A program made the position numbers and the translations under genes. A stretch of 64,000 bases of DNA from Lingula anatina (taxonomy: Eukaryota > Animalia > Brachiopoda): NCBI GenBank assembly GCA_051362555.1, contig CM120643.1, positions 17,364,848 through 17,428,847 on the forward strand. The letters are read 5' to 3'. Of the stretch, positions 12,444 to 56,923 are shown piece after piece. The notes under the pieces were generated by a model. It made no database searches. It saw only the letters and a program-made list of their open reading frames with translations, and was not told the origin of the DNA. Position 1 is the first letter of the stretch. The number at the start of each line of letters is the position of its first letter.

Positions 12444-12477
<34 letters not shown>

Positions 12478-13161: not shown

Positions 13162-13213
<52 letters not shown>

Positions 13214-15099: not shown

Positions 15100-15152
<53 letters not shown>

Positions 15153-18780: not shown

Positions 18781-19285
18781 AAGTCGAAACCCTAATGTCC
18801 TATTTCGAGCCCACGCTTGAATTAAGAATTCTATTTTCAAATTTTCAATATTTATGGACTTTTATTATTATGACGTTTCTGCAATTTTGTTAATCTTGTC
18901 TTTGTCATTTTTAAATTAATAATTAAAATTACGTACAAGTATGTGGCCTGGTTCAAATATCAAGTGTCATTCACAGGAAATTGGTGCCATCATTTATGAT
19001 TTTATTGGGCATTTTCTGCTGTGCAGGTAAAAACCTGCCCATAGGTAATGCCTATCATGACATTTTTGTCGCAATTATAAACGTGCTAGCCAGTAAGATG
19101 TGCATATTTAAGTTGGAAGTAAGGAACATTAAGTAAAGCAATAATCATTTCACGTTCGTAAATATGTTAAAAATTAACGTTAGTTTTAGTCACCCAGTAA
19201 ACACCACGCGGGTGCATCACTTCCACTTTAGCCAGCTCCTAATTTCGTGACCCCAAAGTGGTTTGCCTCAAAAGAGTCTAGTCCT

Positions 19286-20433
19286 TTAAGGTTTGTATAC
19301 AATGTTCATTACATCTGGTTGCTTGGCAACCTTTGGTACAGGAGCACAATAACAGCTGTACTTCACGGCGTAAGACTTCAGCCAGGCGCCTCCGCACGGC
19401 ATTTGGATATTACACGTGGTCTTCCCTTGACACAGGTTCCTCACGCGCTGCTCTATGGAAGCAAGGCTTGGGTCAGGCTACAAGTAAAACGCACGACTTT
19501 TTAATTAATTTTACTTCAGTTTTAATTCTTGGTCAGTATGAACAAGTTGACCTATCCGATAGCCGTATCAAATTTTCACGAACAGTGAAATTAATAAATG
19601 ATACAAATGGTTTAATAACTCTTGAATATATTTGAAGGGAGTCCATCAGAAGCAATGCGTTTATTTCGCTTTTGTTATACCAAAATATGATTTTAAACAT
19701 TTACTCAGATCCCAAGGGCCTCGGCTAACACGGCGCCGGCGACTGACGTACCTTGCAGGCAAGAGTGTAGCGTGGCGGATACTGACATGCCGCTGGGAAC
19801 GCGGAGCAAAATGGGTAGCGACACACGTGATCTATCGAGATGTACGTCTTGGCCTTGCAGCTCAGACACAGCAGGGGAACCCGGTTGCAGTCGAAGGTGC
19901 GCAGTGGGGCCTTCAGAGCTATTAATATAGAAAAATGTGCACTTAAGATTTGAAAATGATTGCATGACAGGGCGATTATACATGTATTTATTTTTTAAGG
20001 TAGACAGTTTAAACTAAGGCCTACTTGTTAACATAAGCATATTGGATGTTTTATGCACTGTTCTCTAAAAATCGTTATCGTAAACTACTTGCCGCAAAAT
20101 TGCCAACTGAAGATTACTTGAAGAAGAAAAATGTGATTAATTATAAGATTATACATAATATACAAATGGTGTTAAAAGTTATAAACTTGCCGCGCTTGAC
20201 ATCGCATAATAGTGACGTCACTCACATGTGGCAACAAAGTGTGTGACATCACCATGACGTCACAAAGTACTCACGATTGCAGCACTGAGTGTTACATCGA
20301 CGATTCTGGCTTGTATCACCCTCGCAGCTTCCTCGTCCACATGTTCTATACCGCGTTTGAATACCTCCGCCACATGCTTTCGAACACGTTGTCCACGAGC
20401 CCCAAAGACTCCAACCGGTGAAATTATTAACAT
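19286..20433 (-). CDS. Second terminal cassette: TSP1 exon (20433-20275) + SUEL-lectin-like exons (19918-19752, 19477-19286)
   Basis: All three exons are open with AG/GT sites and have the same lengths (159/167/192 nt) and phases as 29725-28591; DVNNFTGWSLWGSWTTCSKACGGG...; ends YKP*. No own start exon seen. Confidence 0.8.
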
Positions 20434-21289
20434 CTGGAATATCAATGTATACTTAAATAACAAAGCATGTAAAGAGTAAAAAATAATTATTTAAAGAGTG
20501 TTTATTGTCATAACATAGTGGAACATATGCGGTGCTTGCCAGTATGTGCCAGATAGAATACTATACCAATAACTTACTAGTATTCTAAAGAATACTTAAC
20601 TTACGTTAAAGAATACTTAACTTACGTATCAAACAAAAACAAGCGAACATTCTAGATTCTTAATGCACATGTCCATTTTAATGCAGATGCCCCTCTCTCT
20701 CTCCCCCCAAACACCCTCATTGGTCTTTTAATTCAAGTATAAATGTAGACATGTACACATGCAAACTTCGTGAATATATTTACTTGGGTAATGGTCATAA
20801 AAGTGGATCTTGATCACAACTCACCTCTGTAATTGGCTTGCTACATTGCATTATCTTGTTATCAGATACGTTTGGATAGCACCTACCTGGTCAACATGCT
20901 TTTAAACCAGTTATATATCAGTTCGACATATATCAATACAATCTTGGAAACGATAAGTATAGACAAAGGCCAGAGCCCGTTTTAATTAGGTAACAGGAAA
21001 AAGAAACTGAAAACCCGAAACAAATTTCCACTTGTTGACGCAAGTCTATGTGCTACAAGATGGAGGCAATGCTGTGTCATAGCAACCACGAGGGACCGCG
21101 AGAAATTGCGTTATCCATGCAATAGAACAAAAGGATTTCAATGAGGCACAGCGCGCGCTACCTTGATAATAAGTTGTTCAGGCTCCCGTGGAGCTATCAA
21201 AACAGCTTATCTGAGACAATGGGCGAATGTTTACCCGAACGCACATAGCTTCAAAGGAAGATGCCGCGTTACTCGTCCTTCTCTTATTA

Positions 21290-22560: not shown

Positions 22561-22587
22561 CTTTTCCAATTTGTGATTTTTGCCGTT

Positions 22588-23667: not shown

Positions 23668-23733
23668 TACTCATGTTGAAAGTCTCTTCCTCTTTTTGCA
23701 TCCTCCGCCATATGTGACGACGTTACTGACTTA

Positions 23734-23948
23734 GGCTCTGTTCTCACAACTTTTAGATCGATCTATCACCGCGGGGAGTCTCACTAGATTACTGTCAGAT
23801 AATCCCCCTTAAGTGTCCGTCCCCGCCTACTACAAGCTTTAAGGGGTAATTAACTTTCGTGTCCGCCCGGCTGACAGCTATTTAGCGTGAACCCCCAGGG
23901 AGTTAGGTCGATCCAATGTAGGTCGATCTAATCTATGAGAATGGGGTG
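23734..23948. mobile_element. 215-bp MITE inserted in the Gypsy LTR
   Basis: Matches 8993-9207. Confidence 0.85.
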
Positions 23949-24395
23949 TTTGTCTTGGTGGCGCGAGGTAATAACTAAACAATTCCATGTTTTCCCATAT
24001 TCTTTTTTATCGCTTTCTAACTACGCTATCTACAGTTTATTCCTCATCGTTCGAGTTATGTTCTCCCCGTCTACATTACATTCTTCGCTTAAGTACAATA
24101 AGGTCGTGTCAATCAACTAAAGTGACACTACAAAACACTTCCCGCTCTTATTCGCTGCATGCTGTCACTAACTAACGTTACACATGTATATTTACCTTCG
24201 ATTCTTTTCTTTTTCAAAAAACTTTTGAAATGAATGAAATATTTATCGGCTTTAATTATTAAAATGTTTCTACAATTATGTTGATCTTTTCTTTGTCACT
24301 TAATTAAGTAAAAGTATGTTTCCAGCACAATTGTAATGATTGTTTATGTATATCTGCAATGCGACATGTATAAACCGCACGTTATTTACGCAGTG

Positions 24396-25271: not shown

Positions 25272-25873
25272 TTATTCGAACTAAATAAGACTTCATTATC
25301 ATGTTGCATAATTTATAAAAGAGCAAACGAAGTGCAAGCAACAGTTACTGCGTGCATCGGTTCAACGTGACACTACTATAACCAAGGAGTTATAACAGAT
25401 ATAACCTATATTTATTCCAACTGTTAGTCCACTCCATCCAGCCAAAACAACTCCACACTATCATACAGCAGACGACCTGAATCGAGGCGTTTATGGCTAA
25501 ATGAGAATCTATATCAGTTGATGAAAATAATTACACATCTTATAAACATGCACAGCTTGTCAAATCTATTTTCTGGAGGCAAGCAGTCTGTACGGCAGTA
25601 CGGCTATTATATAAGGAAGCCCTTTATCTTCCTCATGAGGACTTCGGCAGAGTTAATGTTTGTATGCTATGGCCTACTTCTATTCAACAATATTACAACC
25701 ATATAATCAACAACACGTGTTTAGCTGTGTGTGCGGGTAACCTCATTATATACTCTGCTGTGAGAACCACTGGCACGTTGAAAAAAAAACTTCGAACAGC
25801 CTCTTTCCTTTACAACTTCGTCTGCTGCAAGCCACCACAGCGGCGCAACAAGAGGCATACGGTCTACGGCGCC

Positions 25874-28155
25874 ATGGATGCTCCCTCACCAGGGAATGTT
25901 CAACTGCGACCCCCGACGGGGATCACCAAGGTCCAGGACGGGGAGGGGGACACCATGATTGCTTACAATGACGTGGGGTTTATAGACATGCCTCCGATCT
26001 CTAACCTGGAGGAGAAAATGGCACAACTGTCCGACTTCAAGAGCAGGTCGGACGATGTGTTTGTGTGCTCTTTTCCCAAGTCAGGTATGAGTATAGGCAG
26101 TGCCAGCATGTGCCCGGTTGATTGTGTATAATGACCTAGACTTCTACTGGTACATCTTTGACGTAGGTCTATACATCTGCGAGTATGTGTATACTATATC
26201 GTCATTGTTTTTATACTATTCGTCATTTGGCATATATGAAAGCAGTTATATATTAAGAGTTAAAAGACCTGCACATAGTAGACCCCACAAGGTCAACTTG
26301 CTGGCCTTCCGTATATTTATTATTATTATAACAGCCAGCCCATTCCACGGCTGAGGTCAAGTTAAGGATAATAGGAATACAGTACCAATGCATGTTGTAA
26401 AGTTAGCAGATTTGCAGGTAAATTGGACATTGCATATGACCTACTGGAGTGTTTAACTGAACTAACGTTCTGCACTCCGTGGAACAGGTACTCATCTCGT
26501 CTGGACTATAACAAGCATGCTTGTGGACAGCAGTCAATACCCGTCCTATCCAGAGCGCGCACTGGACGATGCGCTGCTTGAATTCGAAGGCCCGTCTTCC
26601 CTCACGTCCAACCTTCCACCACCAAGAGTCGTGGCTTCCCATCTTAGCGTGGTCAAGATGCCGCCGTCCGTTTTAAGCAATGCGAAAATCGTGGTGGTTT
26701 ACCGTAACCCCAAAGACGCCTATGTGTCGTTCTACCACCAGCTGCGTGGACTGAAGTGGCGGGAATACTCAGGCACGTGGTCAGGGTTCTATGAGCTGAT
26801 GATGCAGAGAAATGAGGAGCACGTGGGTGGACCGGACAGTAAGACAGTGCTTGACAACTTTTATTATAAAAAAGAATGTTGTTAACGTCAGGTTGCCAAT
26901 CGGTGCTCTTGTTACAAGAGCGAAACGTAGCTGTTTCATATATAATTTATGTTCCAAAGTAGGCTAAGTGATTTTATCACTATACAAAAACGCCGTCTAA
27001 ATCGAAGCTCTTGATCATTGAACAATAAAATAGAGAATGATAAGCAAAAAATTCATGATTTCTTACATATTTACTGAAATGTTTGTCTTTTATTTTAGGT
27101 TTTATATCGTGGGTGGATCACACGAAGGGCTGGTGGGAATTTGCAAAGAAAAACAGTAATGTAACATTTGTCAGATACGAAGATTTAGTCAGCGTGAGTA
27201 TTTTACGAGCTATATTGTTTTCAACAACATCAGTTTAAATAACAATTAATAGACGAACAAAAATTGACATATCATTAGTGTGTGTGTGTATGTGTGTGTT
27301 TGTGTGTGTGTGTGTGTGTTCGCCCACGCGCAAAAAGAAATATCAAAGGATTTTTACTGATACTTAAGGATCATCCATCTTTACCATCATTTTTGCATAT
27401 TCTTAAAGGACCCTATCCCTACCATTAAAAGGATCTCAGACTCCTTGGACTTACAGCGAGAGGCCGCCACCTTGGAGCACATCGCCATGAAGTGCAAATT
27501 TGACAGCATGAAAAAGGCCAGAGATGATAAAGACGGTTGGGACCAAGAGAACTGGAAGATACATCTGCTGGGATTTACAGAAAAGGTAATATATTACGGG
27601 TTATAAATAGGCTTAATCCTTAATTTTGGCTAGTTGCCTACTTTTTACAGAATTAATATTTACTTGAATTCGATGATACGAGGCGTTTTCTTGCAGTTTG
27701 TGCAAAAAGGAAAATAAAGAAAAAATCTTTCAACATCACTACAGATATAAGTGTACCGTCACGTTTACGTGTTCTTGTCATTGCATACTTCAATGCATAA
27801 TTTGAATTATTTTTGTAAATTGCTCTTTCTCTTATAACATTGCAATGGCCTCACTAGCATATTGCTAGGTGAAAACCTACCACAACCAGTGGGTTTTGAT
27901 TAAGCTACCCCAATGTCGGTGTACATGTTAACTATACTTACTTTTTAGAAGAATGCTTTTGATGAATAGTGATGTTTTCATTTTATTATTGTTATCATTA
28001 TCAGTCGTTTTATTTTCTCCAGCAAATGTCCCATCTTATCTATCATTGTAGGCAAAAGTGGAGACTGGAAGAACCTATTTACTGTAGCTCAAAATGAGCG
28101 ATTTGACTCACTCATCAGAAGGAGGTTGTCGCAAACTGGATTCAGTTTGACTTGA
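25874..28155 (+). CDS. Cytosolic sulfotransferase (SULT1-like), 5 exons, apparent frameshift in exon 4
   Basis: Exons 25874-26084, 26488-26838, 27099-27193, 27409-27585, 28052-28155; motifs DDVFVCSFPKSGTH, YRNPKDAYVSFYH, YEDL, YRKGKSGDWKNLFTVAQNERFD. Confidence 0.88.
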
Positions 28156-28590
28156 TACTTGACACGGTTTCTTCAGTATAAGTTGAGATGAGATCTCGTT
28201 GAATTCAACTGAATAACTTCCTGACCGAATATCAAATATCAAGTGTCACTCACAGGAAATTGGTAGCATCATTTATGATTTTATTGGACATTTTCTGCTG
28301 TGGAGATAAATACCTGTTCAGAGGTAGGCCTATCATGACATTTTTGTGGCAATTATAAACGGGCTACCCAGTAAGATATGCATACCAAAGGTGGAAGTTA
28401 GGAACATTAAGTAAAGCAATAATCATTTCACGTTTGAAATATGTTGAAAATCAACGTTAGTTTTAGTCACCCAGTAAACACACCACGCAGGTTTTGTCGA
28501 ACAGTGCATCACTTCCGGTTTAGCCAGCTCCTAGTTTCGAGACCCCAACGTGGTGTGCCTGCTCGGAAAAACTCAAAAGAGCCTAGTCCT

Positions 28591-30893
28591 TTAAGGTCTG
28601 TATACAATGTTCATAACATCTGGTTGCTTGGCAACCTTTGCTACAGGAGCACAACAACAGCTGTACTTCACGGCGTACGATTTCAGCCAGGCGCCTCCGC
28701 ACGGCATTTGGATATTGCACGTGGTCTTCCCTTGACACAGGTTCCTCACGCGCTGCTCTATGGAAGCAAGGCTTGGGTCAGGCTGCAAGAAGAACGCACG
28801 ACTTTTTATTAATTTTTCTTCAGTTTTATTCTTGGCCACTTAAGAACAAGTTGACCTATCGCAAAGCCGTATAAAATTTTCACGAACAGTGAAACTGATA
28901 AATGATACAAGTGGTTCAATAACTCTTGAATGTTTCCGAAGGGAGTCATCAGAAGCGATACATTTTCGTCTCCATTGATATACTAAAACTGATTTCAAAT
29001 CACATAAATTTATACAGATCGGGGAACATGGCGCCGGCGTCTGACGTACCTTGCAGGCGAGAGTGTAGCGTGGCGGATACTGACATGCCGCTGGGAACGC
29101 GGAGCATGATGGGTAGCGACACACGTGATCTATCGAGATGTACGTCTTGGCTTGGCAACTGAGACACAACAGGGGATCTCGAGTGCAGTCGAAGGCGCGC
29201 AGTGGGGCCTTCAGGGCTGTTTGTATAATAAATGTGCAATCAAGTTCAAAATATGAATGCATGCCATTGCGATTAAATCAGTGGGTTTTTTTTAAGGCGG
29301 ACAGCTAAAACTAAAACATACTTGTTAGGATAAGCACAACGGACGTTATTTGTCTCCCCACTCTTCTCTAAAATCGCTATTGTTAAATACTCGCATCAAA
29401 ATTATTTACTGAAGATAATATAAAAATGTGATTAACAATATATTATACATTATATACAAATGGTGAAATAAGTTCTAAACTTCCCCTGCTTGACACTGCA
29501 TGATAGTGACGTCAATCACATGCGGCATTACGGTGAGATATCACCATGACGTCACAGGGTACTTACGATTGCAGCAGTGAGTGTTACATGGTCGACTTTG
29601 ACTCGTATCACCCTCGCAGTTTCCTCGTCCACATGTGCGAGACCTCGTTTGAATACCACTGTCACACGATTTTGAACACGCGGTCCACGAGCCCCAAAGA
29701 CTCCAACCAGTGAAATTATTAACATCTGGAATATCAATGTATAACATCGCATAAAACGAATAATAGAAAACGATTATTCAAAGAGTTTATTGTCGATCAT
29801 AATGAAGTCTCATAAACCCATGAAATATATGCTGCTCAATATGTGCCAGAAAAATGATATTCCAATACCCTATTCAAGAATAACAAAAACTATTTAATAC
29901 GCTGCGTGTAAGACACAACACGACAATAAGTCATCATTTTTAAAACTCGTAATGCACCCGTGCATTTTGCATATTCCAAAACAAAACGCCCGATTCAGTC
30001 ACTGTCAATAACGATAGGACAGAAAGAATGTTGTGGTCTAATGAAATAAGGGTAATGCAAACATAGTTTTAAGAAGTTCACGGCTGGCAATGAAATTAAT
30101 TATGAGAACTTGTGTTGTGGGTAACTGTATATAAGAGAAAGATACTCATAAACGAATCTAAAAGATTTATAACATACCTGGATCTGGACATTCGTTCTTG
30201 GAGATGCACTGGCCGTTGTGAAGTATGAGGCGACGGAGGGGGCATCTACACTTAGGATTGCAGTTCAGTCGGCACTTGATGGGCGTTTTGACCTTCTCAC
30301 ACGTGGCATTACAATCCAGACCGCATCTCTTAAAAACTTGACCACCAGTGCATACTGGACACTGGTCGTAAGTAACACACTGACCATTGTGCCATATAGG
30401 CTTGTCCGTGGGACATTCACACTTCTGAACACACTGCAATGTACATGGCGTTAGTTTGTTCCAGTTTTCGCAAGTGACGTCACAAGCTGATCCGCACTCT
30501 GTGTAGATTTGACCCCCGGAACATTTTGGGCATTTGTCAGTAGTAACGCATTGACCCCGGAACCATACTGGTTTGTCTGTTGGGCACTGACACCTTTCGA
30601 CGCACATTTTGTGGCAAGGTACAGGCGAGTCCGGATTTTCACAAGTGACGTCACACGCAGAGCCGCAAACTTTGTAAACCTGCCCGCCTGTGCACACAGG
30701 GCATCGGTCTGCTGTTACGCACTGTCCTTTGTACCAGACTGGTTTGTCACTGGGGCACTGGCACCTCCTGACACATTGCTTGGTGCATGGAATAGGCGAG
30801 TTCACGTTCTCACACGTGACGTCACAAGCTGAACCACACTCTTTGAAGACTTGTCCACCGGTGCATTCCTCTGAGGAAGTAAATTCCAGTCAA

Positions 30894-30929
<36 letters not shown>

Positions 30930-33900
30930 TATTATGCAGTTCTGTTTACTTTAATATTAACAATAATCTCAATACAAAAGATTTAACTTCATACCTAACA
31001 TTTACCTGTGGATGCTTGACACAAGTTACGTAATAATTCTAAAGCACACAACCGAAGAACCGAATGAACCAATGCTGACACAAACTAAGTGAACTGACTT
31101 CTGCCAGTCAGCTAGATTTTAATGTTTTGATTGGTGCAAAAACCTCCCAGTGCTGTTCCTGTCGCTCGACCTCCATTCTGCGTATTTGTACTATTTTCAT
31201 TTTCTGTTTTATTATTTAAGAATCAATTTTTTATTTTAAGTCACAAAGCCATTACAACTATTAAATGTCACAGACAATATCATGTTCTAACACATATTTC
31301 GATTAATTGGTAAATAAGTTTTCCGAAAAAAAAAGCATGCAATAGGCAAAATGAAAGTAAGGTTGATGCTTTTTGGTTTTTATTTCTTTATGCACTCAAA
31401 TCATGGTATGATGCCATTTAACTCACCTGGAGGTGGTTTCACTTCGTCTTCTGTCTGACAGCAACACCTGTACTGCACCGCCATCGACTTCAACCAGGGT
31501 CCTCCACATGGCATTGGAACCTTGCAGTCAGGCTTGCCCTGGCACATGGTTCTCAATCGGCGTTCTATTAACGCCAGACTCGGATCGGGCTATGTATAAA
31601 GTGTATACATGTAAAAGCAACTTTTTTACGCTATTTTTGTAAAAACAGCGAAGAGAACTTGCAAATATGGCGAAGTTCTATTCATTGTTCAAATTTTTAA
31701 AACTATTATCATCATTATTAAAAATAATGAAATTTACTTTTTTTTGGTTGGTATTGACAGCGATATCGGACAAAAGCCACTTTTGCAAATATGTATACAA
31801 CCTGGACATTTCTACAGCATCGAGTTTTCAAAACTTGCCGCGAGATGTGAACATTTCGTTTTTTTTTTAATATTTTTCTTCGAAATTGAAGAGTTAAATG
31901 GGCTCTAGTGAGTGTGCAAAAGTAGTCATTGATCAATTACCACGAACCTTGCAGGCCAGAGAAAACCGAGGCGGATAGCGACAGGCTTCCGGGAACACTG
32001 AACATGGCGGATAGCGACACACGTGGTCAATAGAGATGTTACCGCCGCCATAACAGCTAAGACACAGCCAGGGGTTTCTGGTGCAGTCATATCCTCGAGG
32101 CGGGAACTTAGTGGCTGCAAAGAACAGAATATTGCATAATACATGTACTTTGTTCAAAGGCATACGTTATATTATTATTATTAATTATTATTAAACCTTA
32201 ATTCATACAGTAAATTAATTAATTTCCCTGGATATTTTCAGCAATATTTTCTTTATCATTAAGGTATAAGGTATAGACGAGAAATATACTTTTTGGAACA
32301 GCTGTTTAAGGCCTAACATGTATAATGTATACATGCGAGCAGGTTATTTAAGCCTGTGGTACTCTTGTATGACTGGATAAAAAGTAAGAGATAGCTGATG
32401 GATTGGAGAGGATGGAGTAAATAGCTAACAATTCATAAAGATCAAAATATTTTCTGTTGGGGAGGGGGGGCGAAAAAAACAAACAAAAAAAAAAAAAAAA
32501 CGAAAAAACGGCGTAAATGGCGACGCTTACCAAAGCAGCATTGAGTATTACAGGCCTCACTCTGAGTGTCATCTCCATCGCAGCTACCTCGTCCACACCT
32601 GCGAGATCTCGTTCGTGTTCCTCCGTCACACGTTTTTGAGCATGTGCTCCACGAGCCCCAAAGACTCCAGCCAGTAAAATTTCCAACGGCTGAAACAGAG
32701 AAGAACATTACAGGCTTGCAAAGACCACCAAACCTGGTCAACGTAATTGCTTTGTATGTGTTGACATACCGTGTTTAAACAACAGCGTTTGCACATTTCA
32801 AGTGTCTAATTAACATAGGTAACAACTTTGGAAGTCACCCTGTATTTTATATACTGAGATCCAAAGTATTTTGCACCTGCGTTTCTGACTTCAATTTGCG
32901 TGATTGATATACCTCATGAAATTAGCATATTTTTCAGACGAATAAAAAGGGACGATAGAATAAACATAGAACATAGATTACAAGTGGTTGTTGTATTCAG
33001 TTAATTAATGCCGTTACATTAAAGGGATAATAACTTCCACAATAAATTCCACAAAATTCCACAATAAATTCATTGTAAACAACACAATGATACAATAAAT
33101 TTTATTTTGCCACCAAAACGGCGGTGATCGCAATTATTCTGAAATCTGTGCTTTCCATCGGACCACGTGGACTTTCATAGATGGCTACTCACTGCAATTA
33201 TCTCTGAAAGTTTATTACAAAAACCCACACCTTGAAGAAAAAAACAATCAAATAGTTTCGAATGTCGGAACGGATCCAGTTACCATTGAAGAGTGTGGGG
33301 AAATTATGGTTTACCACAGGAAATCTTTCCCCGTCAAAATGAAGAGTTGTCTTCCCTTTAACACCGACTTAAGTACCATTTTGTGGCTAATAGGGTATGT
33401 TCTCGTCTAACTTAAATGGATAGATACAACCATTTTGATGATTAAAATATCAGGCACACAACTTAATGCTTACACGTTTACAAATACATGCCAATTTTCC
33501 CTTTAAATTGCATACATTTTTTTTTATATAAATCTGCTGAAATATTCACATCACAGGCCCGTAGCCAGCAATTTCAAAAGGTCGTTCTTTTTCTGAAAAA
33601 GTGGACATTTTACCAAGAAACCTTAGTGTACCTAGATCAATTTTTACCCAAAATGGACTCTTACCCGGCAGAAAGGGCAATTATTACGAACCACCCTGCC
33701 TACGGGCCTGCATCATAACATAACACAATTTCAATTAATTTGATATTGATCACTAACCTGAGTCTGGGCACTCCTCCTTCTTGATACACTCCCCATTATG
33801 AAATATGGGCTGGCTGAGAGGACACCTACATTTAGGAACACAGTCCAATCTACACTGTATAGGTGTATTCACTTTCTCACACGTGATCTCGCAGTCCAGC

Positions 33901-36900
33901 CCACATCTCTTGAAGACCTGTCCACCTGTGCAAGGTGGGCACTGGTCATAAGTAACACACTGACCATTGTGCCATATAGGCTTGTCTGCTGGGCACTCGC
34001 ACTTCTGAACACACTGTGCAGTACACGGTGTGGGTTTGTTCCAGTTTGCACATGTGACGTCACAAGCTGATCCGCACTCTGTGTAGATTTGCCCACCAGA
34101 ACAAACTGGACACCCCTCCGAGGTGATACACTGGTCATTGTGCCAGACTGGGGCCTCTGGCGGACACTGGCATCTCGGTACGCACTGTTTGGTACATGGT
34201 ATAGGAGATCCCACATTCTCGCACGTGACGTCACACGCAGACCCACATCGTTTGAAGACCTGTCCCCCAGCGCACGTGGTGGCTTAAAATACATTAACTT
34301 ATTCTAAGTGTCCAAACAGATGCGTATTTTTTACAATGTTATCTTCAAGTTCTCGATAATGATAAGACTTTTTGCCAATTTACCTAGAATTTAATGAACA
34401 TCCTTAGTGTGATTTTTTTATACTATTTCCTTTAAAATTAATTCAAGAGGTACTCACTGACGGACGCAAGTGGTGATACACGGCACTGTTCCTCTAGGAT
34501 GCACTGCTTGTTGTGCCATACTGGTAGTTCCGAAGGGCACTGACATTTTGGAACACATATCAATGGACAGGGCATTAGAGAATTCAAATTCTCACACGTG
34601 GTCTCACAAGATGAACCGCATTCCATGTAGACCTGTCCACCAGAACAGACTGGGCACTGTTCGGCAGCAATGCACTGGCCATTATACCAAACTGGCTTGT
34701 CTTGAGGACACTGACATCTTCGGACGCATTCCCTAGTACATATTATCGGAGAGCCCACGTTTTCACATGTGACGTCGCAAGCTGATCCGCATTCTTTATA
34801 AATCTGTCCACCAGAGCAGACTGGACACTGCCCGGCCGTAACACACTGGTCATTATACCACACTGGCTTGTCTTGAGGACACTGGCATCTTCGGACACAT
34901 TGCTTTGTACATGGTACAGGGGAACCCACGTTTTCACATGTGACGTCACACGCTGAACCGCATTCTTTGTAAATTTGACCACCAGAACATGCTGGGCATT
35001 GTTCTTCAGTTATACACTGTCTGTTATGCCAAACTGGTTTATCTTTAGGACACTGGCATCTTCGGACACATTGCTTCGTACATGGTATAGGGGAGCCCAC
35101 GTTTTCACATGTCACGTCACATGCTGAACCGCATTCTGTGAAGACTTGTCCTCCGGTGCATTCGCCTATAAAATACTTTGTACTTCTAAATATCATTGAA
35201 TATAGTCGGTATACTGGAGTAGACCTGCCTGTGTTATGCTTATTTAATAACGGCAGATTAGGAAAGTATTTATCTGACGATGATGACAACTCAAATTTTT
35301 GTATAGAATTTTGCAAGATAAAACCATAGTTACCGTTACAGTTTGCGTCAGTGTGTGTTTTCTTTTGCACTTCATCTTTTCCATCTTTTCAGTCACACTT
35401 ATATTTGTGTTTTAAACTATTAAGGCTTTATTTACAAAGAGACTGAATAATAACCATGAACATGCAATACGTGGGTGAAGCTCGCAACCGCTAGGTATCG
35501 AACTTTCAGATTCCATTACCTGATGCAGTGCACTCTTCTTCCGTGATACACTTGTCATTTTGCAAAACTGGGCGTTCCGATGGACAGTGACACCCTTCAA
35601 CACACCTGAGGCTGCAGATAAGATTGTTGACGTTATCACACGTGACATTACACGCAGGTCCACACTGCATATACACTTTGTCTCCTGGACACGACGGGCA
35701 TTCCTCCGCTTTAATGCACTGTCCTTTATGCAAAACTGGGGCCTCTGCAGGACATTGGCATTTAGGCACACACTGTTTGGTACATGGTATAGGAGTCCCC
35801 TCGTTCTCGCACGTGACGTCACACGCTGACCCACATTCTTTGAAGACTTGTCCTCCAGTGCACGTGACGGCTTAAATTAAATTATCTTTTGCTAAGTGTT
35901 CTGTGGCGTCTGTTGTATACATAATAGTGAAAATTCAGCAATGCTTTGATTAATTTTTTGAAATAAATTTTGTATAATGAAAAAGTAAACAACCCGAGTG
36001 TGCAATAATTGGTACAGGGGTGTGCCCATGACTGGACTACAATTGTATGTCATGTTATTCATGAGAATGTTGAACACTATAGTACAAGCTTTGCAAAAAG
36101 GATGACGGCTTGTGGTTTAACAACTAAGGTCACCATATATTTCTTGCTACATAGAACATTAAAACTTGGTTGGCGCTTGTTAAAAGCTTTTGTAAAATGC
36201 GCGGAGGGCAACAAATGGATAGAAACAATAACTTGACATTAGTTATTTTTCAACAAAACATGAAACAAAAAGCATAATTCAAATCAATCATCTTACCTGG
36301 TCGAGGCTTCACCGCACAAGCCTCGGCTGTAACACACTTCCCGTTGTGCCAAACAGGCAAGTTGCGAGGGCACTGGCACCTCGGTACGCACTGTAAGGTA
36401 CACCCTCTGTCCTTATCTACATTCTCACATGTGACGTTACAGGCCGATCCACATTCCACGAACACCTGCCCTCCTGGGCAGCCTGGACACTGGTCAGCGG
36501 TGATGCACTTGCCATTGTGCCACACGGGACGACTACGGGGACACTGGCATGTAGGGGTGCACTGTAGGCTGCAACCTACAGGCGGTTCCAAAACGTTTTG
36601 GCAGTTGATCTCGCAGGTGGACGCACATTCCATTCTTACTTGACCCCCAGTACAAGGTGCTAAAATGAAATCGAAACCCATAAAGACTGGTGCGTCTGAA
36701 AGCTCGTCTATACAAGACCCATACTTTGGAATGTATGACACTGCAAAGGCATGACGCCCCTGCAGAATAAGGTAATTTAGTCCAACCTATCACCGAAATT
36801 GAACAAGGCACTTACATTCTGGAGGATCAACTAGCCTGCCACCGAACAACAGGGCGCCAGTGCTATTGTCAAATATCCAGAACGAAAAGGGATGGTCAGC

Positions 36901-38412
36901 GGTGAAGGAAAGGGGCACAGAAGTTGTGGTCACTTTGGCTGCCGTGGCTGCTGCCGCTTCCGTTCCCTCTTCATCTACTTTGATGTAGGCTTCGTGAATT
37001 ATCTGAAAATCAATTAAAATGATAATCTGATGAGACAAAAATGATAACGGAGATAAAACGCATTTGTTCTGTTTAAAGATATTATTTTATTTGCATATCC
37101 ATAACATATATGTCGCTTTTATTTTCAGATTCAATACTCCAGTTCAATTTCAATTTCAATGAAGTGACAACAGGGAAGGGTTGGATCCCACATGGATATA
37201 AATGACCATTTTCCTTCTTTGTATATCAAAGTTGGTAGCTCTGGAGCCGTTTTATTGCATTCCTATCTTACATACTAGCATTGCATGCAAGCCGTCATTC
37301 CGAATTCTGCCTTGCTTCAATTTTTATAGCAATAGGGAGCACTGGCCGATCAACAGACAAAACATTTTGGCTAGTACTATCATCACTAGCAATATTACCT
37401 TTGATAACTTTAGATCACCAGGCATACCTCCTATGCCTGACAGGTCAGCATTGGACGAGAACAGGTCGGTTATCCCAAGACTCTCGAGTGAATCTTTTAA
37501 ATCAATGCGCATGTCCTCTAATTCATATCGGGGCAGCGACACGGAGACTTTCGTCTCTTGCATGGTAGAAAAAAGTCCAGACAATTCATCAGCGGTAAAC
37601 TCAGATTCAAAATGGCTGAGTCCATCACGCTGGTCGGGCAGTATAATCAGCATGCTGGCCGTTCCTTCATAAGGAATTTCTATCATGGAGGCCTGCCATA
37701 TCTCACTATGGGCATACCTAAATCGTCCAGTCTGTGTCATCATATCGACTAACGTGGGGCGAGGATTAGCAGTATAGAAAGGGTGTTTTCTTGTCTGTAA
37801 GTGGTCGAAGGGGGACGCCCATTTCCCCTTAAAATACACAGCACTTACGAGAGCCAGAATAGTAGAGGGGGTGACATCACCCGGTTCGAGAAGATCTTTG
37901 ATTTTGTCTTCCGTTTGCCCCTCGACCCATCTGTTGATCTCAGTCCTTGATTCTTCCGGAGAACTTACAAAATCAAGGCGTCCCAGTGGAGCTCCATAGT
38001 ATGTAAGGCTGTCTTCAGTGTAGCTGGTATTAAAAAAGAATCCCTGGTCCCCAAATAATCTATTTGCAATACGGAGTGTGGCGTTGTTGTTAGGGTCCAC
38101 CATGGCATCAAGAATATTCTTATAATCTTCATGATGATCGGTTATATGCTCTATCCCCAGGACGATGTCCATTTGTACTTTGGTTTTGCCTCGAGCGCCC
38201 AGTTCCAGCATGCTTAGTGCGCTATGGATATTGAAGGGGGAGAACAATATATTCGACTTTGGCGGTAACATTCGGATCTTGTTGTACAGTTTAATTGCAA
38301 AAACATTACTTTGATGAGCAAGTGGTTGCCCGGAAAGCCCAGCACTCGATCTTAAATTCCCAATCAAATACAGCAACTGTAGCAACAGGACAGGCCATTT
38401 TCGTAACGCCAT
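28591..38412 (-). CDS. Secreted serpin-TIL(x15)-TSP1(x2)-SUEL-like(x2) multidomain protein, ~1626 aa
   Basis: Phase-compatible exons 38412-37399, 37002-36816, 36659-36297, 35870-35520, 35165-34458, 34282-33758, 32689-32531, 32114-31948, 31589-31427, (31038-31006), 30870-30178, 29725-29567, 29216-29050, 28782-28591; total 4881 nt, single open frame. Confidence 0.85.
33554..33710. mobile_element. 157-bp MITE with a 5-bp TSD CATCA
   Basis: caggcccgtag ... ctacgggcctg. Confidence 0.8.
36816..37002 (-). CDS. Sole serpin RCL / C-terminal exon of the cluster
   Basis: IIHEAYIKVDEEGTEAAAATAAKVTTTSVPLSFTADHPFSFWIFDNSTGALLFGGRLVDPPE; phase-0 acceptor, phase-1 donor gtaagt. Confidence 0.95.
37399..38412 (-). 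CDS. Serpin body exon A (signal peptide to start of s5A), 338 codons
   Basis: MALRKWPVLLL..., NILFSP, VSAVYFKGKW, ends KLSK|gtaata. Confidence 0.95.
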
Positions 38413-39248
38413 CTTTTCCGTTTTCCCACCTCCTTTGACTGGCCTTCTCCACAAGGCCTTATGTTATAAAGAGACGACAAATAGGTCTAATGGTTTTAAT
38501 TCCAATGTCGGTAACAATTTTGCATGGTTTTACATGCATTCAAATACTGTGCCATCATCTTTCGGAGACAAATGATGATACATCTAGATAAAATTAGATA
38601 AACTGTACATCTATTTGTCGGTTTGCATTGCAACACCCTGGCTTAAGTGTCATTTTGACAGTCATCTGGTATTGTACTCATGGCGCCTGCCTTATGTGAC
38701 AGCAATGAGGACAACTTAAAATATAACACCATGAAACGCAGGGTGGCTCTGACGTCTTTTAAAAACTAATTAGGATTTCCACAGCATTTGCATCGGTTTA
38801 ATGTACCGCTTACGCTCAGGATGGATAAAGACATTAGCTTTGGGTTAATTGCGGACTGTAAACATTGCACATTCAATTTCCACTTTAAGAAAATTAAAGG
38901 TTTCTTAAAAGCTTTAATGGCTGTGACTAATAGCGGCAGGTGATATTTTGTTCTGTTTGCCATATAGACTTTCACGTCAATATTAAAAGATTTTATCTAC
39001 TGCCAACGGTTAAATAAAATGTACGGTCGCAGATGCAGAACCAATACATTAAGTTACGAGGGCAACAAAATTACACCACCTACCGTATCCTTACGAGCTA
39101 AACAACTCATAGGGACACGACTATTTCAGGTGTTTCTCAGCGAATTCAGTCTCTGCAAGTAAAGTAGATGACAGTCGAGGCATTTATGGGGGACGACAAG
39201 GATGAGGGGGTTCATTAGAATGAGATGCACATGTATTTCGAAGTATAC

Positions 39249-40200: not shown

Positions 40201-40950
40201 ATGACACAGCATTGTCTATGGAAGATATGCTTCTCTTATTCATGCTTCCTTGAACATGGCATTTGCCTTTTCACTGTAAACTGCTATTAATTCCATCAAA
40301 TGGAATTATTCCCGCATATATTCAGTTACTTGAAGGCGAACACGAAATAATTATAAAACACTTACAAACTGGTTGAGTAATAAATGTGTCTTAGTTTGAA
40401 CTCATTGAAATCGTAAACACAACATTCTGTTGGAGATTATATATTCCGTCATTTCTAGCAAAAGTGGCTATGAGCAATTTTCCCTTAATATATGTGTAAT
40501 CTTTGTTGGACCAAACAATTCAAGAAATCACAGCAACAGATGATAGTTCGATCTACTTTTGGGCGCCTTTGACCGCATTCACATCGAGTTGGGCAATGGC
40601 TCTACAAAGCCACGAACTAAATATGGCGGACGTTTTAAAGTAAAACTGACAGTTGTTTTGTGTCTTTAGTGAACTAGTGAATTTTTTTAACTTGTTATTC
40701 AGAAATACCTGTACATTCCAATAAACTTCCTTGCAAGGTCAGCTAACACTAGGATAAATAAGTCGCTGTAAATGTGATGGAGTGAAATTAACAAAGTTGA
40801 CAGTTCTCGGTACCCTGTTATAGATAGGTTGAGGTGATTGTGACTTTGTTATATATATAACATGCGTGAGTGTGGAACAGAGTGCTCAACAGTACGGATC
40901 ATTTGTACACAATTAAAATTAATAAATAAATAAATAAACAAAAGACATGC

Positions 40951-41015
40951 AATAACCCCGACTCCGAGTTTCACGGGCATACCCAGAAGGTATGCCCGAT
41001 CGTCAGGAGGTTTAT
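40951..41015 (-). ncRNA. Type I hammerhead ribozyme (Penelope pLTR copy)
   Basis: Reverse complement of 42431-42496. Confidence 0.8.
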
Positions 41016-41060
41016 CATCTGTTGCTGTGATTTCTTGAATGTTTATTTATTTTCTTATAT

Positions 41061-41093
<33 letters not shown>

Positions 41094-41184
41094 ACAAGCG
41101 TGAATGTGGAACAGAGTGCTCAACAGTACGGAGCATTTGTACACAATTAAAATTAATAAATAAATAAATAAACAAAAGACATGC

Positions 41185-41252
41185 AATAACCCCGACTCCG
41201 AGTTTCACGGGCATACCCAGAAGGTATATGCCCGATCGTCAGGAGGTTTATT
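41185..41252 (-). ncRNA. Type I hammerhead ribozyme (2-nt insertion in stem II)
   Basis: Reverse complement of 42431-42496 with an extra TA. Confidence 0.75.
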
Positions 41253-42430
41253 TGAAAATGGTTATATTAGCCGTTTTACATACACAGCGTGACGACACTT
41301 ACGTCGCACGCCGTGTTAGTTACGTCACTTTATGCCGACACATGGTAATTATCTCAGTTCTTTTATTCAGAGTATCTGGTGTTATCATTATCAACAGTTT
41401 TTCGTCTAAGCAAAGATTGCATAGGTGCTGATTTCTCCTTTGCGGCGTTGATTTCTTTATGATGTCCCATCTAATGTCATAGTGGGTTTTATTTTCTGTT
41501 AATTTCTAAATGTATTTGGATAACTCAGTATCTGCAGCATATTTCTTGTCTCTAAATGACTTGGTGTGATTATTGTATCTCAACTTAAATTGGCCACCAC
41601 AAAGCCCTATATATTTCATGCATTTGTCCTTAGTAGTGACTGATGCTTGGTACACAATGTTGCTAGACAAGCATTCCCCTCTTACTAGAAGCTCTAAAAT
41701 TACATTTATTATCTTGAGTGTTAACTAACATGTTTTTTAGAATTTTTTTATTGTGACCGTGAATGATTTGCTGTACGTTTTTCATACAACAGTAACTTAC
41801 TTTTACAGTCGATCTGTTGAATAATCGGTAAAGCTTGCTTCCGCGAGGGAAATGCTTGTCTAGCAACTGTAGGAATATATGCCCGATTTTCGTTCTTACA
41901 TTTTTCGAGTATGGTGGGTTGAACCAAATAAGTTTCCTGTTTCGTTTTTTCTTTTCTCTGGGACGAGAGCTGCTTGCTTTAGAGTTAACGACATTACGGT
42001 ATAGCCCGCGGTTTGAAGCGCCGTCGTATATACGTTATCTGATCCTTCTGCTACCACTCCGTCATACGAAAGGGATTGCAATCTTTCGCCGATGGCTTTA
42101 GGAATGTTCCTTATTATTGCGGGGGGGTGATTTGAGTGTTTGTGAACATAGATCGGCTGGGCGTTCGGTTTTACGAACTGCCTGTGTTTCCCGGATTCTA
42201 AGTCTAGGTTAACATCAAGGAAGTTAACTGCTCTATCGTTGGTGGATACAGTGAGTTAAGGTCATAACTTTTGAAGAGCTTGACTATATCCTTTCTAATG
42301 CTGTCAGCTTCGCTTCCACCACAAGATTTCATCACGGCTAAGCTGAGATAATTACCATGTGTCGGCATGAAGTGACGTAACTAACACGGCGTGCGACGTA
42401 AGTGTCGTCACGCTAATATAATCATTTTCA

Positions 42431-42496
42431 AATAAACCTCCTGACGATCGGGCATACCTTCTGGGTATGCCCGTGAAACTCGGAGTCGGGGTTATT
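42431..42496 (+). ncRNA. Type I hammerhead ribozyme
   Basis: aaacctc-CTGACGA-t-cgggcatacc/ggtatgcccg-t-GAAA-ctcggag-TC-ggggtt; GUC cleavage triplet at 42485-42487. Confidence 0.85.
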
Positions 42497-42528
42497 GCAT
42501 GTCTTTTGTTTATTTATTTATTTATTTA

Positions 42529-42599
<71 letters not shown>

Positions 42600-42626
42600 T
42601 TGGAAATCCTTGGAAGGCCAAACATA

Positions 42627-45042: not shown

Positions 45043-46065
45043 CTTTGACAACTGAAGTTCACCAGGGGTTCCTCCTATACCTGACAGGTCAGCGTTGGAT
45101 GAGAACAGTTCGGTCATTCCAAGACTTTCGAGTGGATCTTTTAAATTAACACGCATGTTTTCTAATACAAACCGAGGGATCGAAACTGTCAAAATAGAAA
45201 GCGCCGATTCCTGCATAGAATGGAAAAGCCTGTGAATTTCCTCACCAGAAAACTCAGATTCAAAATGGCTGAGTCCATCACGCTGGTCGGGCAGTATGAT
45301 GAGCATTCTGGCCGTTCCTACATAAGGAATTTCTATCATGGAGGCCTGCCATTTCTTGCTGTAGATATGCCTAAACAATCCAGTCTGTGTCATCATATCC
45401 ACTAACGTGGGGCGAGGATTAGCAGTATAGAAAGGGCTTTTTCTGGTTTGTGACGGGTCAAAGGGGGATTCCCATTTTCCCCTGAAGTACACGGCACTTA
45501 CGAGAGCCAGAATGGTAGAGGGGGTGATATCACCCGGTTCAAGAAGATCTTTGATTTTGTTTTCCGTTTGCTCTTTAACCCATGTGTTGATCTCATTTCT
45601 TGATTCTTCCGGAAAATTTACAAAATCATGACGTCCCATTGGCGCTCCATAGTATGCAAGACTGTCTTCAATGTAGCTGGTATTAAAAGAGAGTCCTTGT
45701 TCTCCAAACAATCTATTGGTAATACGGAGAGTGAAACCGCTGTTGACGTCGTTCGTATCTTCAAGAACGTGACTAATATTTATATGAATATTGGTTATAT
45801 TCTCTATTTCCAAGGCAATATCCACCTGAACTTTGGTATTCCCTCGAGCACCTAGTTCCAGCATACCAAGCGCAGCAGAGATACTGAGAGGGGAGAAAAA
45901 GATATTCGTCACCGAGGGAAACGTGCGGATCTTGTTGTAAAGTTTTGCTGAAAACTTGTTGCTTACTCTTGAAAATGAATGGTGAAATCCTCCATCAATC
46001 GATTCAAGACCTGCGCTCAAAAACAGCAGTTGCAACAAAAGGATGGACTGTTTGCCAAACGCCAT
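45043..46065 (-). CDS. Serpin body exon B, 341 codons, no RCL exon of its own
   Basis: Intact ORF with signal peptide MAFGKQSILLLQLLFL; ends QLSK|gtaata in phase 0. Confidence 0.9.
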
Positions 46066-50977: not shown

Positions 50978-52042
50978 CTTTGACAACTGAAGTTCACCAG
51001 GGGTTCCTCCCATACCTGACAGGTCAGCGTTGGACGAGAACAGGTCGGTCATCCCAAGATTCTCGAGCGGCTCTTTAACATCAATGAGCATGTTTTCTAG
51101 TACAAACCGAGGGATCGAAACTGACTCTTTCGATCTCTGCTGCACTGGGAATGCTGGAACTGATCGAAACTTTCAAAATAGAAAGTGCCGATTCCTGTAG
51201 AGAATGGAAAAGCCCGTGAATTTCCTCACCAGAAAACCCAGATTCAAAATGACTGAGTCCATCTTGTTGGTCGGGTAGTATAATCAACATTCTGGTCCTT
51301 CCTTCATAAGGAATTTCTATCATGGAGGCCTGCCATTTCTTGTTGTAGATATGCATAAACAGTCCAGCCTGTGTCATCATATCTACCAACGTGAGACGAG
51401 GGTTAGCAGTAAAGAAAGGTCGTTTTCTAGTCTGCGACGGGTCAAATGGGGAAGCCAATTTACCTTCAAAGCACATGGCGCTCACGAGAGTCAGAATGAT
51501 AGAGGGGGTGATATCAGCCGGTTCTAGAATAGTTTTGATGTTACCCTCTGTTTGTGCTGTTTGTTGATTTCTATCCTTGATTCTTCCGAAAAGTTTACAA
51601 AATCAAGGCGTCCCAGTGGCTCGCCATAGTACTTAAGACACTCCTCAATGTAGCGGGTATTAAAAGAGAATCCTTGTTCTCCAAACAATCTGTTGGCAAT
51701 GCGTAGAGTGAAACTGTTGATGACGTCGTTCGTATCTTCCAGAACATTACTAATGTTTATATGAATATCATTTATATTCTCTATTTCCAAGGCAATATCC
51801 ATCTGAACTTTCGTATTCCCTCCAGCTCCCAGTTCCAGCATTCCTAGTGCAGCAGAGATACTGAGCGGGGAGAAAAAGATATTCGACGCCGAGGAAAATG
51901 TGCGGATATTGTTGTAAAGTTTTGCTGAAAACTTGTTGCTTACTCTTGAAAATGAATGGTGAAATCCTCCATCAATCGATTCAAGACCTGCGCTCAAAAA
52001 CAGCAGGTGCAACAAAAGGACAGACGATTTTCCAAACACCAT
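50978..52042 (-). pseudogene. Serpin body exon C, frameshifted, B/D chimera
   Basis: Frameshift near 51550 and 49-bp insertion at 51123-51171; donor QLSK|gtagga retained. Confidence 0.9.
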
Positions 52043-55909: not shown

Positions 55910-56923
55910 CTTTGACAACTGAAGTTCACCAGGGGTTCCTCCCATACCTGACAGGTCAGCGTTGGACGAGAACAGGTCGGTCATCCCAAGACTCTCAAGT
56001 GGTTCTTTTAAATCAATCCGCATGTTTTCTAATACAAACGCAGGGAGCGACAGTGACACATTTGTCTCCTGCATAGAACACCGAAGTCTGTCGAACTCAT
56101 CAAACGTAAACTCAGATTCAAAAAGGGTGAGTCCATCACGCTGGTCGGGCAGTATAATCAGCATGCTGGTCGTTGGAACGTAGTAAGGAATTTCTATCAT
56201 GGAGGCCTGCCATTTCTTGCTATAGGCATACCTAAATCGACCTGTCTGTGTCATCATATCCACTAACTTGGGGCGAGGATTAGCAGTATAGAAAGGGCGT
56301 TTCCTGGTCTGCCTTGGATCAAAGGGGGAAGCCCAATTGCCTTTGAAGTAAACAGCACTTACAAGAGCCAGAATGGAAGAGTTGGTGATGTCGCCCGGTT
56401 GAAGAATATCTTCGATTTTAGTTTCTGTTCGTTCTTTGATCCATTTGTTGATCCCAACCCTTGATTCCTCCGGAGAATTTGCAAAATCACGGCGCTCCAG
56501 CTGAGCGCCATAGAACGTAGTACTGTCTGCAAGGTAGGTAGAATTAAAAGAGAAACCCTGTGCTCCAAACAGTCTATTTACAATGTAGAATATGAAAGTG
56601 TTGTTTGAGTTGGTCGTATCTTCAAGAACGTAGCTAATACTTTCATGTACATCGACCGTGTTCTCTATCTCCAAGGCTATGTCTATCTGGATTTTGGTAG
56701 TGCCTTGTGCTCCAAGTCTCAGCATACCCAGTGCAGCAGAGACACTGAGCGGGGAAAAGAAGGTATTAGACACTGAGTCTAATGTGCTTATCTTGGCATA
56801 AAGCTTTACAGAAAACCTGTTGCTTACTCTTGAGAATGGGTGACTAAAACACCCAGCACTCAATCCAGAAAATCCAATCAGAATGAGGTGTAGAAACAGG
56901 ATAGAAAACTTTCCAAGCACCAT
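55910..56923 (-). CDS. Serpin body exon D, 338 codons, no RCL exon of its own
   Basis: Intact ORF with signal peptide MVLGKFSILFLHLILI; ends QLSK|gtaata in phase 0. Confidence 0.9.

What the first reader, a model, noticed from the sequence alone, without database searches (positions are those of the whole stretch)
28591..38412. Serpin fused to 15 TIL inhibitors, 2 TSP1 and 2 lectin-like domains
Seen: the RCL exon has a consensus phase-1 donor (T|gtaagt) right after ...LVDPPE. It joins symmetrical phase 1-1 TIL exons (2+2+4+3 domains), TSP1, SUEL-like, a 4-TIL exon, TSP1 and SUEL-like in one ~1626-aa frame. Established: serpins are nearly always single-domain suicide inhibitors; TIL domains are canonical reversible inhibitors. 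Inference: one secreted protein combines both mechanisms with adhesion/glycan modules, possibly for mucus, egg-coat or immune protection. After RCL cleavage the TIL chain should stay attached through s4B/s5B.
Basis: partly seen in the sequence, partly recalled or inferred. Interest (0 to 1): 0.85.

Follow-up and report, generated by a model that had tools for sequence, protein, structure and literature searches.

The report
Brachiopod serpin fused to inhibitor chain
A brachiopod gene likely encodes one secreted protein that joins a one-shot protease trap (serpin) to fifteen small, predicted reversible protease inhibitors, and three spare copies of the serpin's front exon sit upstream and may be spliced onto the same back half.

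Summary
The architecture is in the DNA: 13 minus-strand exons, 12 of 12 introns GT-AG, one open 1,615-aa frame with a complete serpin (inhibitory hinge, predicted P1 Thr), 15 ten-cysteine TIL domains, 2 TSP1 domains and 2 cysteine-rich modules. Named homologues point to the brachiopod Lingula anatina. One of 4 RNA runs expresses it and confirms 6 of 12 introns, all in the tail; the decisive serpin-to-TIL junction was not seen (depth about 1x). The fusion is inferred (about 0.8): the expressed tail has no other signal peptide and intron 2 has no poly(A) hexamer. The lectin (SUEL) label was not supported. Serpin plus TIL has a precedent in a predicted butterfly protein.

Five reference Lingula models are likewise loop-less. 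This may be a UGT1-like variable-first-exon serpin, the mirror image of insect serpin-1 (about 0.45), or a decaying duplicate array.

The parts
37399..38412 (-). Exon 1 (copy D): hydrophobic N-terminus (predicted signal peptide) and serpin body, Pfam positions 2-307 of 370; ends in phase 0
   Evidence: zero RNA depth
36816..37002 (-). Exon 2: rest of the serpin with hinge and reactive loop (predicted P1 Thr365, P1' Ser366); the only such exon in the window; ends in phase 1 at T|GTAAGT
   Evidence: a few sense reads in run X4
36660..36815 (-). Intron 2 (156 nt), the serpin-to-TIL junction; read-through stop at 36792-36790; no AATAAA/ATTAAA
   Evidence: junction not seen in RNA
36297..36659 (-). 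Exon 3: TIL 1-2
35520..35870 (-). Exon 4: TIL 3-4
34458..35165 (-). Exon 5: TIL 5-8
   Evidence: junction to exon 6 in 11 reads
33758..34282 (-). Exon 6: TIL 9-11
32531..32689 (-). Exon 7: TSP1 domain 1
   Evidence: Pfam TSP_1 1.6e-09; junction to exon 8 in 3 reads
31948..32114 (-). Exon 8: first half of cysteine-rich module 1 (family unassigned)
31427..31589 (-). Exon 9: second half of cysteine-rich module 1
   Evidence: junction to exon 10 in 9 reads, listed one place shifted because of a read variant
30178..30870 (-). Exon 10: TIL 12-15
   Evidence: junction to exon 11 in 16 reads
29567..29725 (-). Exon 11: TSP1 domain 2
   Evidence: junction to exon 12 in 36 reads
29050..29216 (-). Exon 12: first half of cysteine-rich module 2
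   Evidence: junction to exon 13 in 31 reads; 98% identical to Lingula XP_023933618.1
28591..28782 (-). Exon 13, coding part: second half of module 2 and stop; AATAAA at 28285
45043..46065 (-). Serpin exon-1 copy C: intact 341 codons, hydrophobic N-terminus, phase-0 donor AAG|GTAATA, no loop exon of its own
50978..52042 (-). Serpin exon-1 copy B: frameshifted (7 nt missing near 51558, 49 nt extra near 51172 against C), donor kept
55910..56923 (-). Serpin exon-1 copy A: intact 338 codons, hydrophobic N-terminus, phase-0 donor AAG|GTAATA, no loop exon of its own
19286..20434 (-). Orphan duplicate of exons 11-13 (open frames; 87, 92, 96% identical), no TIL exon near it

Best explanation
The 13 exons likely form one gene for a secreted 1,615-residue protease-inhibitor chain in a Lingula brachiopod, built by adding phase-1 TIL, TSP1 and cysteine-rich exons behind a complete serpin. 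Predicted working: the serpin offers a Thr-Ser bait and traps one protease covalently; because the cut falls before the last two core strands, the tail would stay held on the cleaved serpin without a covalent link (the serpin part has no Cys); the 15 TILs would each block a further protease reversibly, with predicted P1 Lys/Arg in 7, Leu in 7 and Ala in 1, covering trypsin-, chymotrypsin- and elastase-like enzymes; the TSP1 and cysteine-rich modules would tether it to an extracellular matrix or mucus. Shown: exon structure, domain identities, six tail junctions, expression in 1 of 4 runs. Inferred: the serpin-TIL splice, secretion, inhibition, tethering. The upstream exon-1 copies arose by duplication of exon 1 alone; about even odds that A and/or C are spliced onto exon 2 as alternative serpin bodies.
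For: 12 of 12 introns GT-AG with matching phases and no internal stop. Donor lies at the end of the Pfam serpin model (positions 309-370 in exon 2) and matches 7 of 9 consensus letters, as good as RNA-confirmed donors at 5-8 of 9. The tail is expressed and spliced in run X4, sense depth falling steadily from 53x at the 3' end to about 1x on exons 3-4 and the exon 2/3 bin, with 79 bases laid upstream of 36976. A tail with 190 Cys needs a signal peptide (established knowledge); the only hydrophobic N-termini found are those of the serpin first exons, and intron 2 is 156 nt with no poly(A) hexamer in intron 2, exon 3 or intron 3. Loop aligns without gaps to Conserpin-AATRCL, Thr-Ser on Met-Ser. 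All 15 TILs have ten Cys, the family mark (PMC9149172 passage); one loop equals that of solved LL-TIL.
Against: No junction listed for introns 1, 2, 3, 4, 6 or 8 and zero depth on exon 1 in 4 of 4 runs. No Lingula serpin-TIL model among 27 hits of 593-2000 aa; the reference annotation has only a 179-aa fragment of the 3' end and no close match to copy D (best 77%). Intron 1 holds three AATAAA and intron 2 holds an in-frame ATG 8 codons before exon 3, without a signal peptide. TIL domains are also structural in mucins and von Willebrand factor (PMC4948705 passages; best PDB hit is VWF). The P1 rule for TILs (second residue after Cys 5) is recalled, and no inhibition was measured.
Confidence: 0.75

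Rival explanations
1. Two separate units: a 408-aa stand-alone serpin made by reading through the 36816 donor, and a TIL-TSP1 gene with its own unseen first exon.
For: Junction not seen and exon 1 uncovered; serpins mostly end here (235 of 280 fetched proteins with a C-terminal match end within 15 residues); reference annotation splits the locus.
Against: No room or signal peptide for a second gene in a 156-nt intron, no poly(A) hexamer until 28285, phase match, continuous sense depth across exon 3 and exon 2.
Confidence: 0.12
2. On the upstream copies: A and C are live alternative first exons (own promoters, or mutually exclusive exons after an unseen leader) spliced to the single loop exon, giving several serpin bodies on one bait and one inhibitor tail.
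For: Only one loop exon in 64 kb by tblastn, phmmer, a 43-sequence profile and blastn; same phase-0 donor in 4 of 4 copies; A and C open with hydrophobic N-termini; dN/dS 0.32-0.38 with intervals below 0.52; branch-private changes omega 0.20 (A), 0.26 (C), 0.29 (B), 0.32 (D), p at most 0.01; sister pair B-C 46 synonymous to 47 replacement differences; 5 of 5 reference exon-1 models on the same scaffold as the 3' fragment stop at or just after the same point; D is sister to all seven loop-less copies (SH-aLRT 98, quick tree); variation among the seven avoids conserved serpin columns (26 of 92 against 90 of 167, p 8e-5).
Against: No RNA was laid on the copies. B is broken; relics lie at 57856, near 54900 and near 50050. 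Private amino-acid changes over the seven copies do not avoid conserved columns (14 of 428 against 16 of 426), and reference copy P0031 changes near-invariant residues. Reference model P0149 splices to a five-codon end, not to a loop exon. I saw only reference protein models, not reference DNA.
Confidence: 0.45
3. On the upstream copies: they are remains of once complete serpin genes or recent dead duplicates; the selection signal is old or spread by gene conversion, and only D is used.
For: Frameshifted B, relics, 3' halves more alike than 5' halves (0.78-0.84 against 0.65-0.72 in 5 of 6 pairs), no recent constraint at conserved columns, copy sets differ between this window and the reference (62-87% identity).
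Against: A 1-kb frame stays stop-free in 24 of 1000 neutral simulations at 0.1 changes per site and 3 of 1000 at 0.15; A and B share about 2.3 kb of downstream DNA with no loop exon, so selection after the B-C and A-B splits acted on loop-less units unless loop exons were lost repeatedly.
Confidence: 0.45
4. The fusion is real but the protein is mainly structural: TILs act as a disulfide-rich rod as in mucins or zonadhesin, and only the serpin inhibits.
For: TILs are structural units in VWF and mucins.
Against: No VWD or C8 domain in any exon; the loop position varies among Lys, Arg, Leu and Ala while the scaffold is conserved, as in multi-headed silkworm TIL inhibitors (PMC3278429 passages).
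Confidence: 0.13

Closest known systems
Bicyclus anynana 'zonadhesin' XP_052738623.1 (predicted model, P0288)
   Same: Serpin and many TIL domains in one chain: 21 TIL stretches and 2 serpin stretches in 2,561 aa, with TILs directly after the first serpin.
   Different: Serpins are internal and C-terminal, 27% identical to this one and far off in the tree; no TSP1; itself an unverified model. Probably an independent fusion (inference).
Inhibitory serpins (PF00079), e.g. Lingula XP_023929993.1 and XP_013418151.1
   Same: Full domain, small-residue hinge, predicted P1 Thr also in both Lingula paralogues.
   Different: Those are single-domain (one with a short hydrophobic tail); this one carries a 1,215-residue tail.
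Multi-headed TIL inhibitors (PF01826), e.g. silkworm BmSPI43-49
   Same: Tandem TILs with mixed P1 residues (PMC3278429 passages).
   Different: Up to 6 domains and no serpin in the silkworm table; 15 here.
Vertebrate variable-first-exon clusters UGT1, GCNT2, protocadherins
   Same: Tandem first exons before constant exons, birth-and-death with dead copies (PMC1885805 abstract).
   Different: There the splicing is proven and the variable exon sets specificity; here splicing is unseen and the specificity-bearing loop is the constant part.
Insect serpin-1 alternative loop exons (Manduca; Pteromalus PpSerpin-1)
   Same: One serpin gene split near the hinge into a duplicated and a shared part (PMC10513286 passages).
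   Different: Mirror image: insects vary the loop on one body, and their N-terminal variants mostly change localisation only; here the body is duplicated and the loop is single.
Rhamnospondin (Hydractinia), TSP1 repeats plus SUEL/RBL domain
   Same: TSP1 followed by a C-terminal cysteine-rich module (PMC3269628 passages).
   Different: The module here has 13 Cys, lacks YGR and DPC motifs and matches no lectin profile.

Membership tests
Inhibitory serpin (PF00079) | Complete serpin domain | tested here: met
   Exon 1 covers profile 2-307, exon 2 covers 309-370; depends on intron 1 being spliced, not seen in RNA
Inhibitory serpin (PF00079) | Small-residue hinge and normal loop length | tested here: met
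   EEGTEAAAAT; gap-free alignment to Conserpin-AATRCL, P1 Thr365
Inhibitory serpin (PF00079) | Covalent complex with a protease | not testable with these tools
   needs protein
TIL inhibitors (PF01826) | Profile match and ten Cys per domain | tested here: met
   15 stretches; 14 counted, the other
TIL inhibitors (PF01826) | Canonical inhibition through the Cys5-Cys6 loop | not testable with these tools
   P1 set K6 R1 L7 A1 by a recalled rule; one loop equals that of LL-TIL 8j3q
TSP1 repeat (PF00090) | Profile match with WxxW motif | tested here: met
   E 1.6e-09 and 1.5e-09, above cut-off; PDB thrombospondin-1
SUEL / rhamnose-binding lectin | Profile or structure match | tested here: not met
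   No Pfam hit up to E 10, no lectin among PDB hits
SUEL / rhamnose-binding lectin | YGR and DPC motifs, eight Cys | tested here: not met
   No YGR; MPC in place of DPC; 13 Cys (motifs from PMC3269628)
SUEL / rhamnose-binding lectin | SUEL fold | tested here: inconclusive
   AlphaFold model failed, pLDDT 34; the C-terminal Cys spacing does resemble SUEL by recall
Variable-first-exon clusters (UGT1 type) | Tandem paralogous first exons with one shared set of downstream exons, same phase | tested here: met
Variable-first-exon clusters (UGT1 type) | Each variable exon spliced to the constant exon in RNA | not tested
   no reads were laid on the upstream copies; one search covered 28000-39200 only
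Variable-first-exon clusters (UGT1 type) | Own promoter for each exon | tested here: inconclusive
   weak shared upstream similarity, 66-79% over 60-240 nt; could also be a splice acceptor
Gel-forming mucins / zonadhesin | VWD-C8-TIL units | tested here: not met
   no VWD or C8 in 13 of 13 exons

The most novel reading that the evidence does not exclude
A brachiopod locus uses a polymorphic array of alternative serpin-body exons spliced onto one reactive-loop exon and a 15-TIL tail: a variable-scaffold, constant-bait serpin, the mirror image of insect serpin-1, fused to a broad reversible inhibitor chain, which varies exosites, stability or site of expression while keeping the bait.
Probability: 0.4. 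Interest if true: 0.8.

Novelty: new variant of a known kind. Interest (0 to 1): 0.6.

Why it matters
A serpin with 15 canonical inhibitors would combine a stoichiometric covalent trap and a broad reversible shield in one molecule, and offers a natural test of whether a serpin still works with a 1,200-residue load on its C-terminus. If the upstream exons are used, nature has run the exosite experiment: several serpin bodies 62-68% alike on one identical bait, which would show directly how much specificity and stability lie outside the loop. The locus also appears mis-annotated in the reference as loop-less serpins and a TSP1 fragment.

Tried and rejected
No whole genome is held for this window. 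No indexed RNA holder was listed; nine raw-read runs came by species label, of which 4 were laid; X1, X7 and X9 showed mainly intronic repeat reads. RNA on the upstream exon-1 copies and from the other five runs was not obtained, so the two key junctions stay open. AlphaFold on the TSP1 plus cysteine-rich fragment failed (pLDDT 34), so no fold search was run. Atlas on exon 12 gave only sub-0.9 leads; the Atlas look-up of the whole module did not complete. SUEL rejected as a family label. Considered that X4 reads come from the 3' duplicate: 5 of 5 listed read variants in the duplicated part equal the duplicate's letter, but exon 11 of the duplicate is 87% alike, under the 92% cut, and reads join exon 11 to exon 10, so I take them as alleles of the main copy. 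Depth arithmetic at the 5' end of exon 2 (79 bases) fits either about three reads from another first exon or one unspliced read; it decides nothing. The careful tree did not finish; the quick tree is quoted. My one-sequence TIL profile missed even the butterfly TILs, so those blanks mean nothing. No complex was predicted. Earlier-finding look-ups by place, sequence and serpin words showed nothing on this locus. Scripts had off-by-one coordinates and were redone.
Full report
Gene model. On the minus strand 13 exons run from ATG 38412 to a stop at 28593-28591. Pfam, exon by exon, gives Serpin (exon 1 profile 2-307, exon 2 profile 309-370), TIL stretches 2+2+4+3 and 4, and two TSP_1; exons 8, 9, 12 and 13 match nothing useful. 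Residues 875-1212 and 1269-1615 are 71% identical, so the tail grew by an internal duplication.

Organism. Exon 12 is 98% identical to Lingula anatina XP_023933618.1, a 179-aa model covering exons 11-13 and starting inside the intron. The window is not the same haplotype as that reference; Lingula is reported to be highly heterozygous and its populations divergent (PMC4595640 and PMC13425148, passages).

RNA. Nine runs were listed by species label; 4 were laid on 28000-39200. One, X4, expresses the gene on the expected strand and shows 6 of 12 junctions: introns 5 (11 reads), 7 (3), 9 (9; listed one place shifted by a synonymous variant), 10 (16), 11 (36) and 12 (31). Depth per exonic base falls from 53 at the 3' end to about 1 on exons 3-4 and the exon 2/3 bin, and is 0 on exon 1. 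The serpin-to-TIL junction is therefore neither shown nor refuted; joints under 3 reads are not listed.

Why the fusion is still the best reading. The donor T|GTAAGT follows the last residue of the serpin profile, is phase 1 like all TIL exons and scores 7 of 9 against the consensus, within the 5-8 of the confirmed donors. The expressed tail holds all 190 Cys and needs a signal peptide; by hydropathy the only candidates are the serpin first exons (no dedicated predictor was run). Intron 2 is 156 nt, and there is no poly(A) hexamer in it, in exon 3 or in intron 3, so the 408-aa read-through form would carry an early stop before many junctions. Against: no Lingula fused model among 27 long hits, no close reference match to exon 1 copy D, three AATAAA in intron 1 and a signal-less in-frame ATG in intron 2. 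I put the fusion at about 0.8.

Mechanism. The loop aligns gap-free to an antitrypsin-type loop with Thr365-Ser366 at P1-P1'; two Lingula paralogues also have Thr there. From established serpin chemistry (recalled), cleavage leaves the C-terminal strands in the core, so the tail would stay attached without a covalent link. All 15 TILs have ten Cys; by the recalled P1 rule they carry Lys 6, Arg 1, Leu 7, Ala 1, a mix like that of multi-headed silkworm TIL proteins (PMC3278429, passages). TSP1 and the cysteine-rich modules are taken as tethers by inference only. The tissue of X4 is not given, so mucus, egg coat or immunity cannot be chosen.

The lectin label. Neither module matched Pfam or a solved lectin; the YGR and DPC motifs of rhamnose-binding lectins (PMC3269628, passages) are absent or altered and there are 13 Cys; the fold prediction failed. 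A remote SUEL fold is not excluded; sugar binding should not be assumed.

Three more copies of exon 1 lie upstream: A 56923-55910 and C 46065-45043 are open, B 52042-50978 is frameshifted; all end at the same phase-0 donor. Four searches found a single loop exon in the window, which has no N. Pairwise dN/dS is 0.32-0.38 and each copy's private changes are biased to synonymous (omega 0.20-0.32, p at most 0.01 at kappa 1.63). Five reference models on the scaffold of the 3' fragment stop at or just after the same point; D is sister to all seven loop-less copies in a quick tree of 32 rows. Against current use: B and three relics; private amino-acid changes not avoiding conserved columns (14 of 428 against 16 of 426); one reference model spliced to a five-codon end that lies in a relic; signs of gene conversion in the 3' halves; and no RNA on these copies. 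A product lacking exon 2 would lack core strands and is unlikely to fold (established knowledge), so if the copies are under selection now it is most simply as partners of exon 2. I give this about 0.45.

Comparison with what is known. Of 296 proteins fetched, 280 had a C-terminal serpin match and 235 of those end within 15 residues; among the 40 longest tails the clearly cysteine-rich one was P0288, a predicted Bicyclus anynana protein with 21 TIL and 2 serpin stretches. These searches return top hits only and are no census. So serpin plus TIL is rare but not unique. Known serpin splicing varies the loop on a fixed body (PMC10513286, passages); variable first exons are known from UGT1, GCNT2 and protocadherins (PMC1885805, abstract). 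Full-text searches for serpin with TIL, C-terminal extension, alternative first exon, or Lingula (listings only, open-access library) showed no paper describing this locus, a serpin-TIL fusion or a variable-body serpin. PMC8233489 (passages) and PMC4948705 (passages) do not mention Lingula; PMC11899716 (one passage) added nothing. In the supplement of PMC13425148 I saw 2 of 6 'serpin' and 2 of 6 'PF01826' places; the unseen ones could bear on a shell role.

Verdict. A real, partly RNA-supported modular inhibitor gene whose headline junction is likely but unproven, with an unexpected loop-less first-exon array in front. New variant of known kinds; interest 0.6, rising to about 0.8 if both junction types are shown.

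Noticed in passing
window 18953-20509 (-): Duplicate of exons 11-13 with introns and 3' UTR, 83% identical overall, frames open, no TIL or serpin exon near it; could be a paralogue remnant or an alternative 3' end.
   Followed up: partly
window 21287-23950 (-) and 8990-9209: Truncated Ty3/gypsy-like element (gag-like frame, protease, partial reverse transcriptase); a 220-nt stretch at 23731-23950 is 100% identical to 8990-9209, perhaps a recent solo LTR.
   Followed up: partly
window 25505-27560 (+): Sulfotransferase gene (Pfam Sulfotransfer_1) on the opposite strand between the gene's 3' end and its duplicate.
   Followed up: no
window 9875-16281 (+): Exons of a WD40-repeat gene (weak Pfam hits).
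   Followed up: no
window 57789-57928, about 54900-54975 and 50040-50115 (-): Relics of exon-1 starts or upstream regions, one with a stop in the signal-peptide frame; the array has had more births and deaths.
   Followed up: partly
window 40850-42600: Inverted-repeat element with broken frames, flanked by (AT)n runs, between copies C and D; no Pfam hit for two frames.
   Followed up: no
P0173, P0179, P0189, P0209, P0221, P0232, P0234, P0243, P0247, P0075: Several related serpins end in a short linker and hydrophobic tail that looks like a GPI signal; a tail exon after the serpin end may have been the entry point for exon shuffling. Intron positions not checked.
   Followed up: no
window 33050-33660: Intronic repeat that draws most reads in 3 of 4 runs on both strands; not part of the mRNA.
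   Followed up: no
coding exons 9-12: Of 12 coding read variants of run X4 that I classed, 10 are synonymous, in line with constraint on the tail; 79 further variant rows were not shown by the tool.
   Followed up: partly
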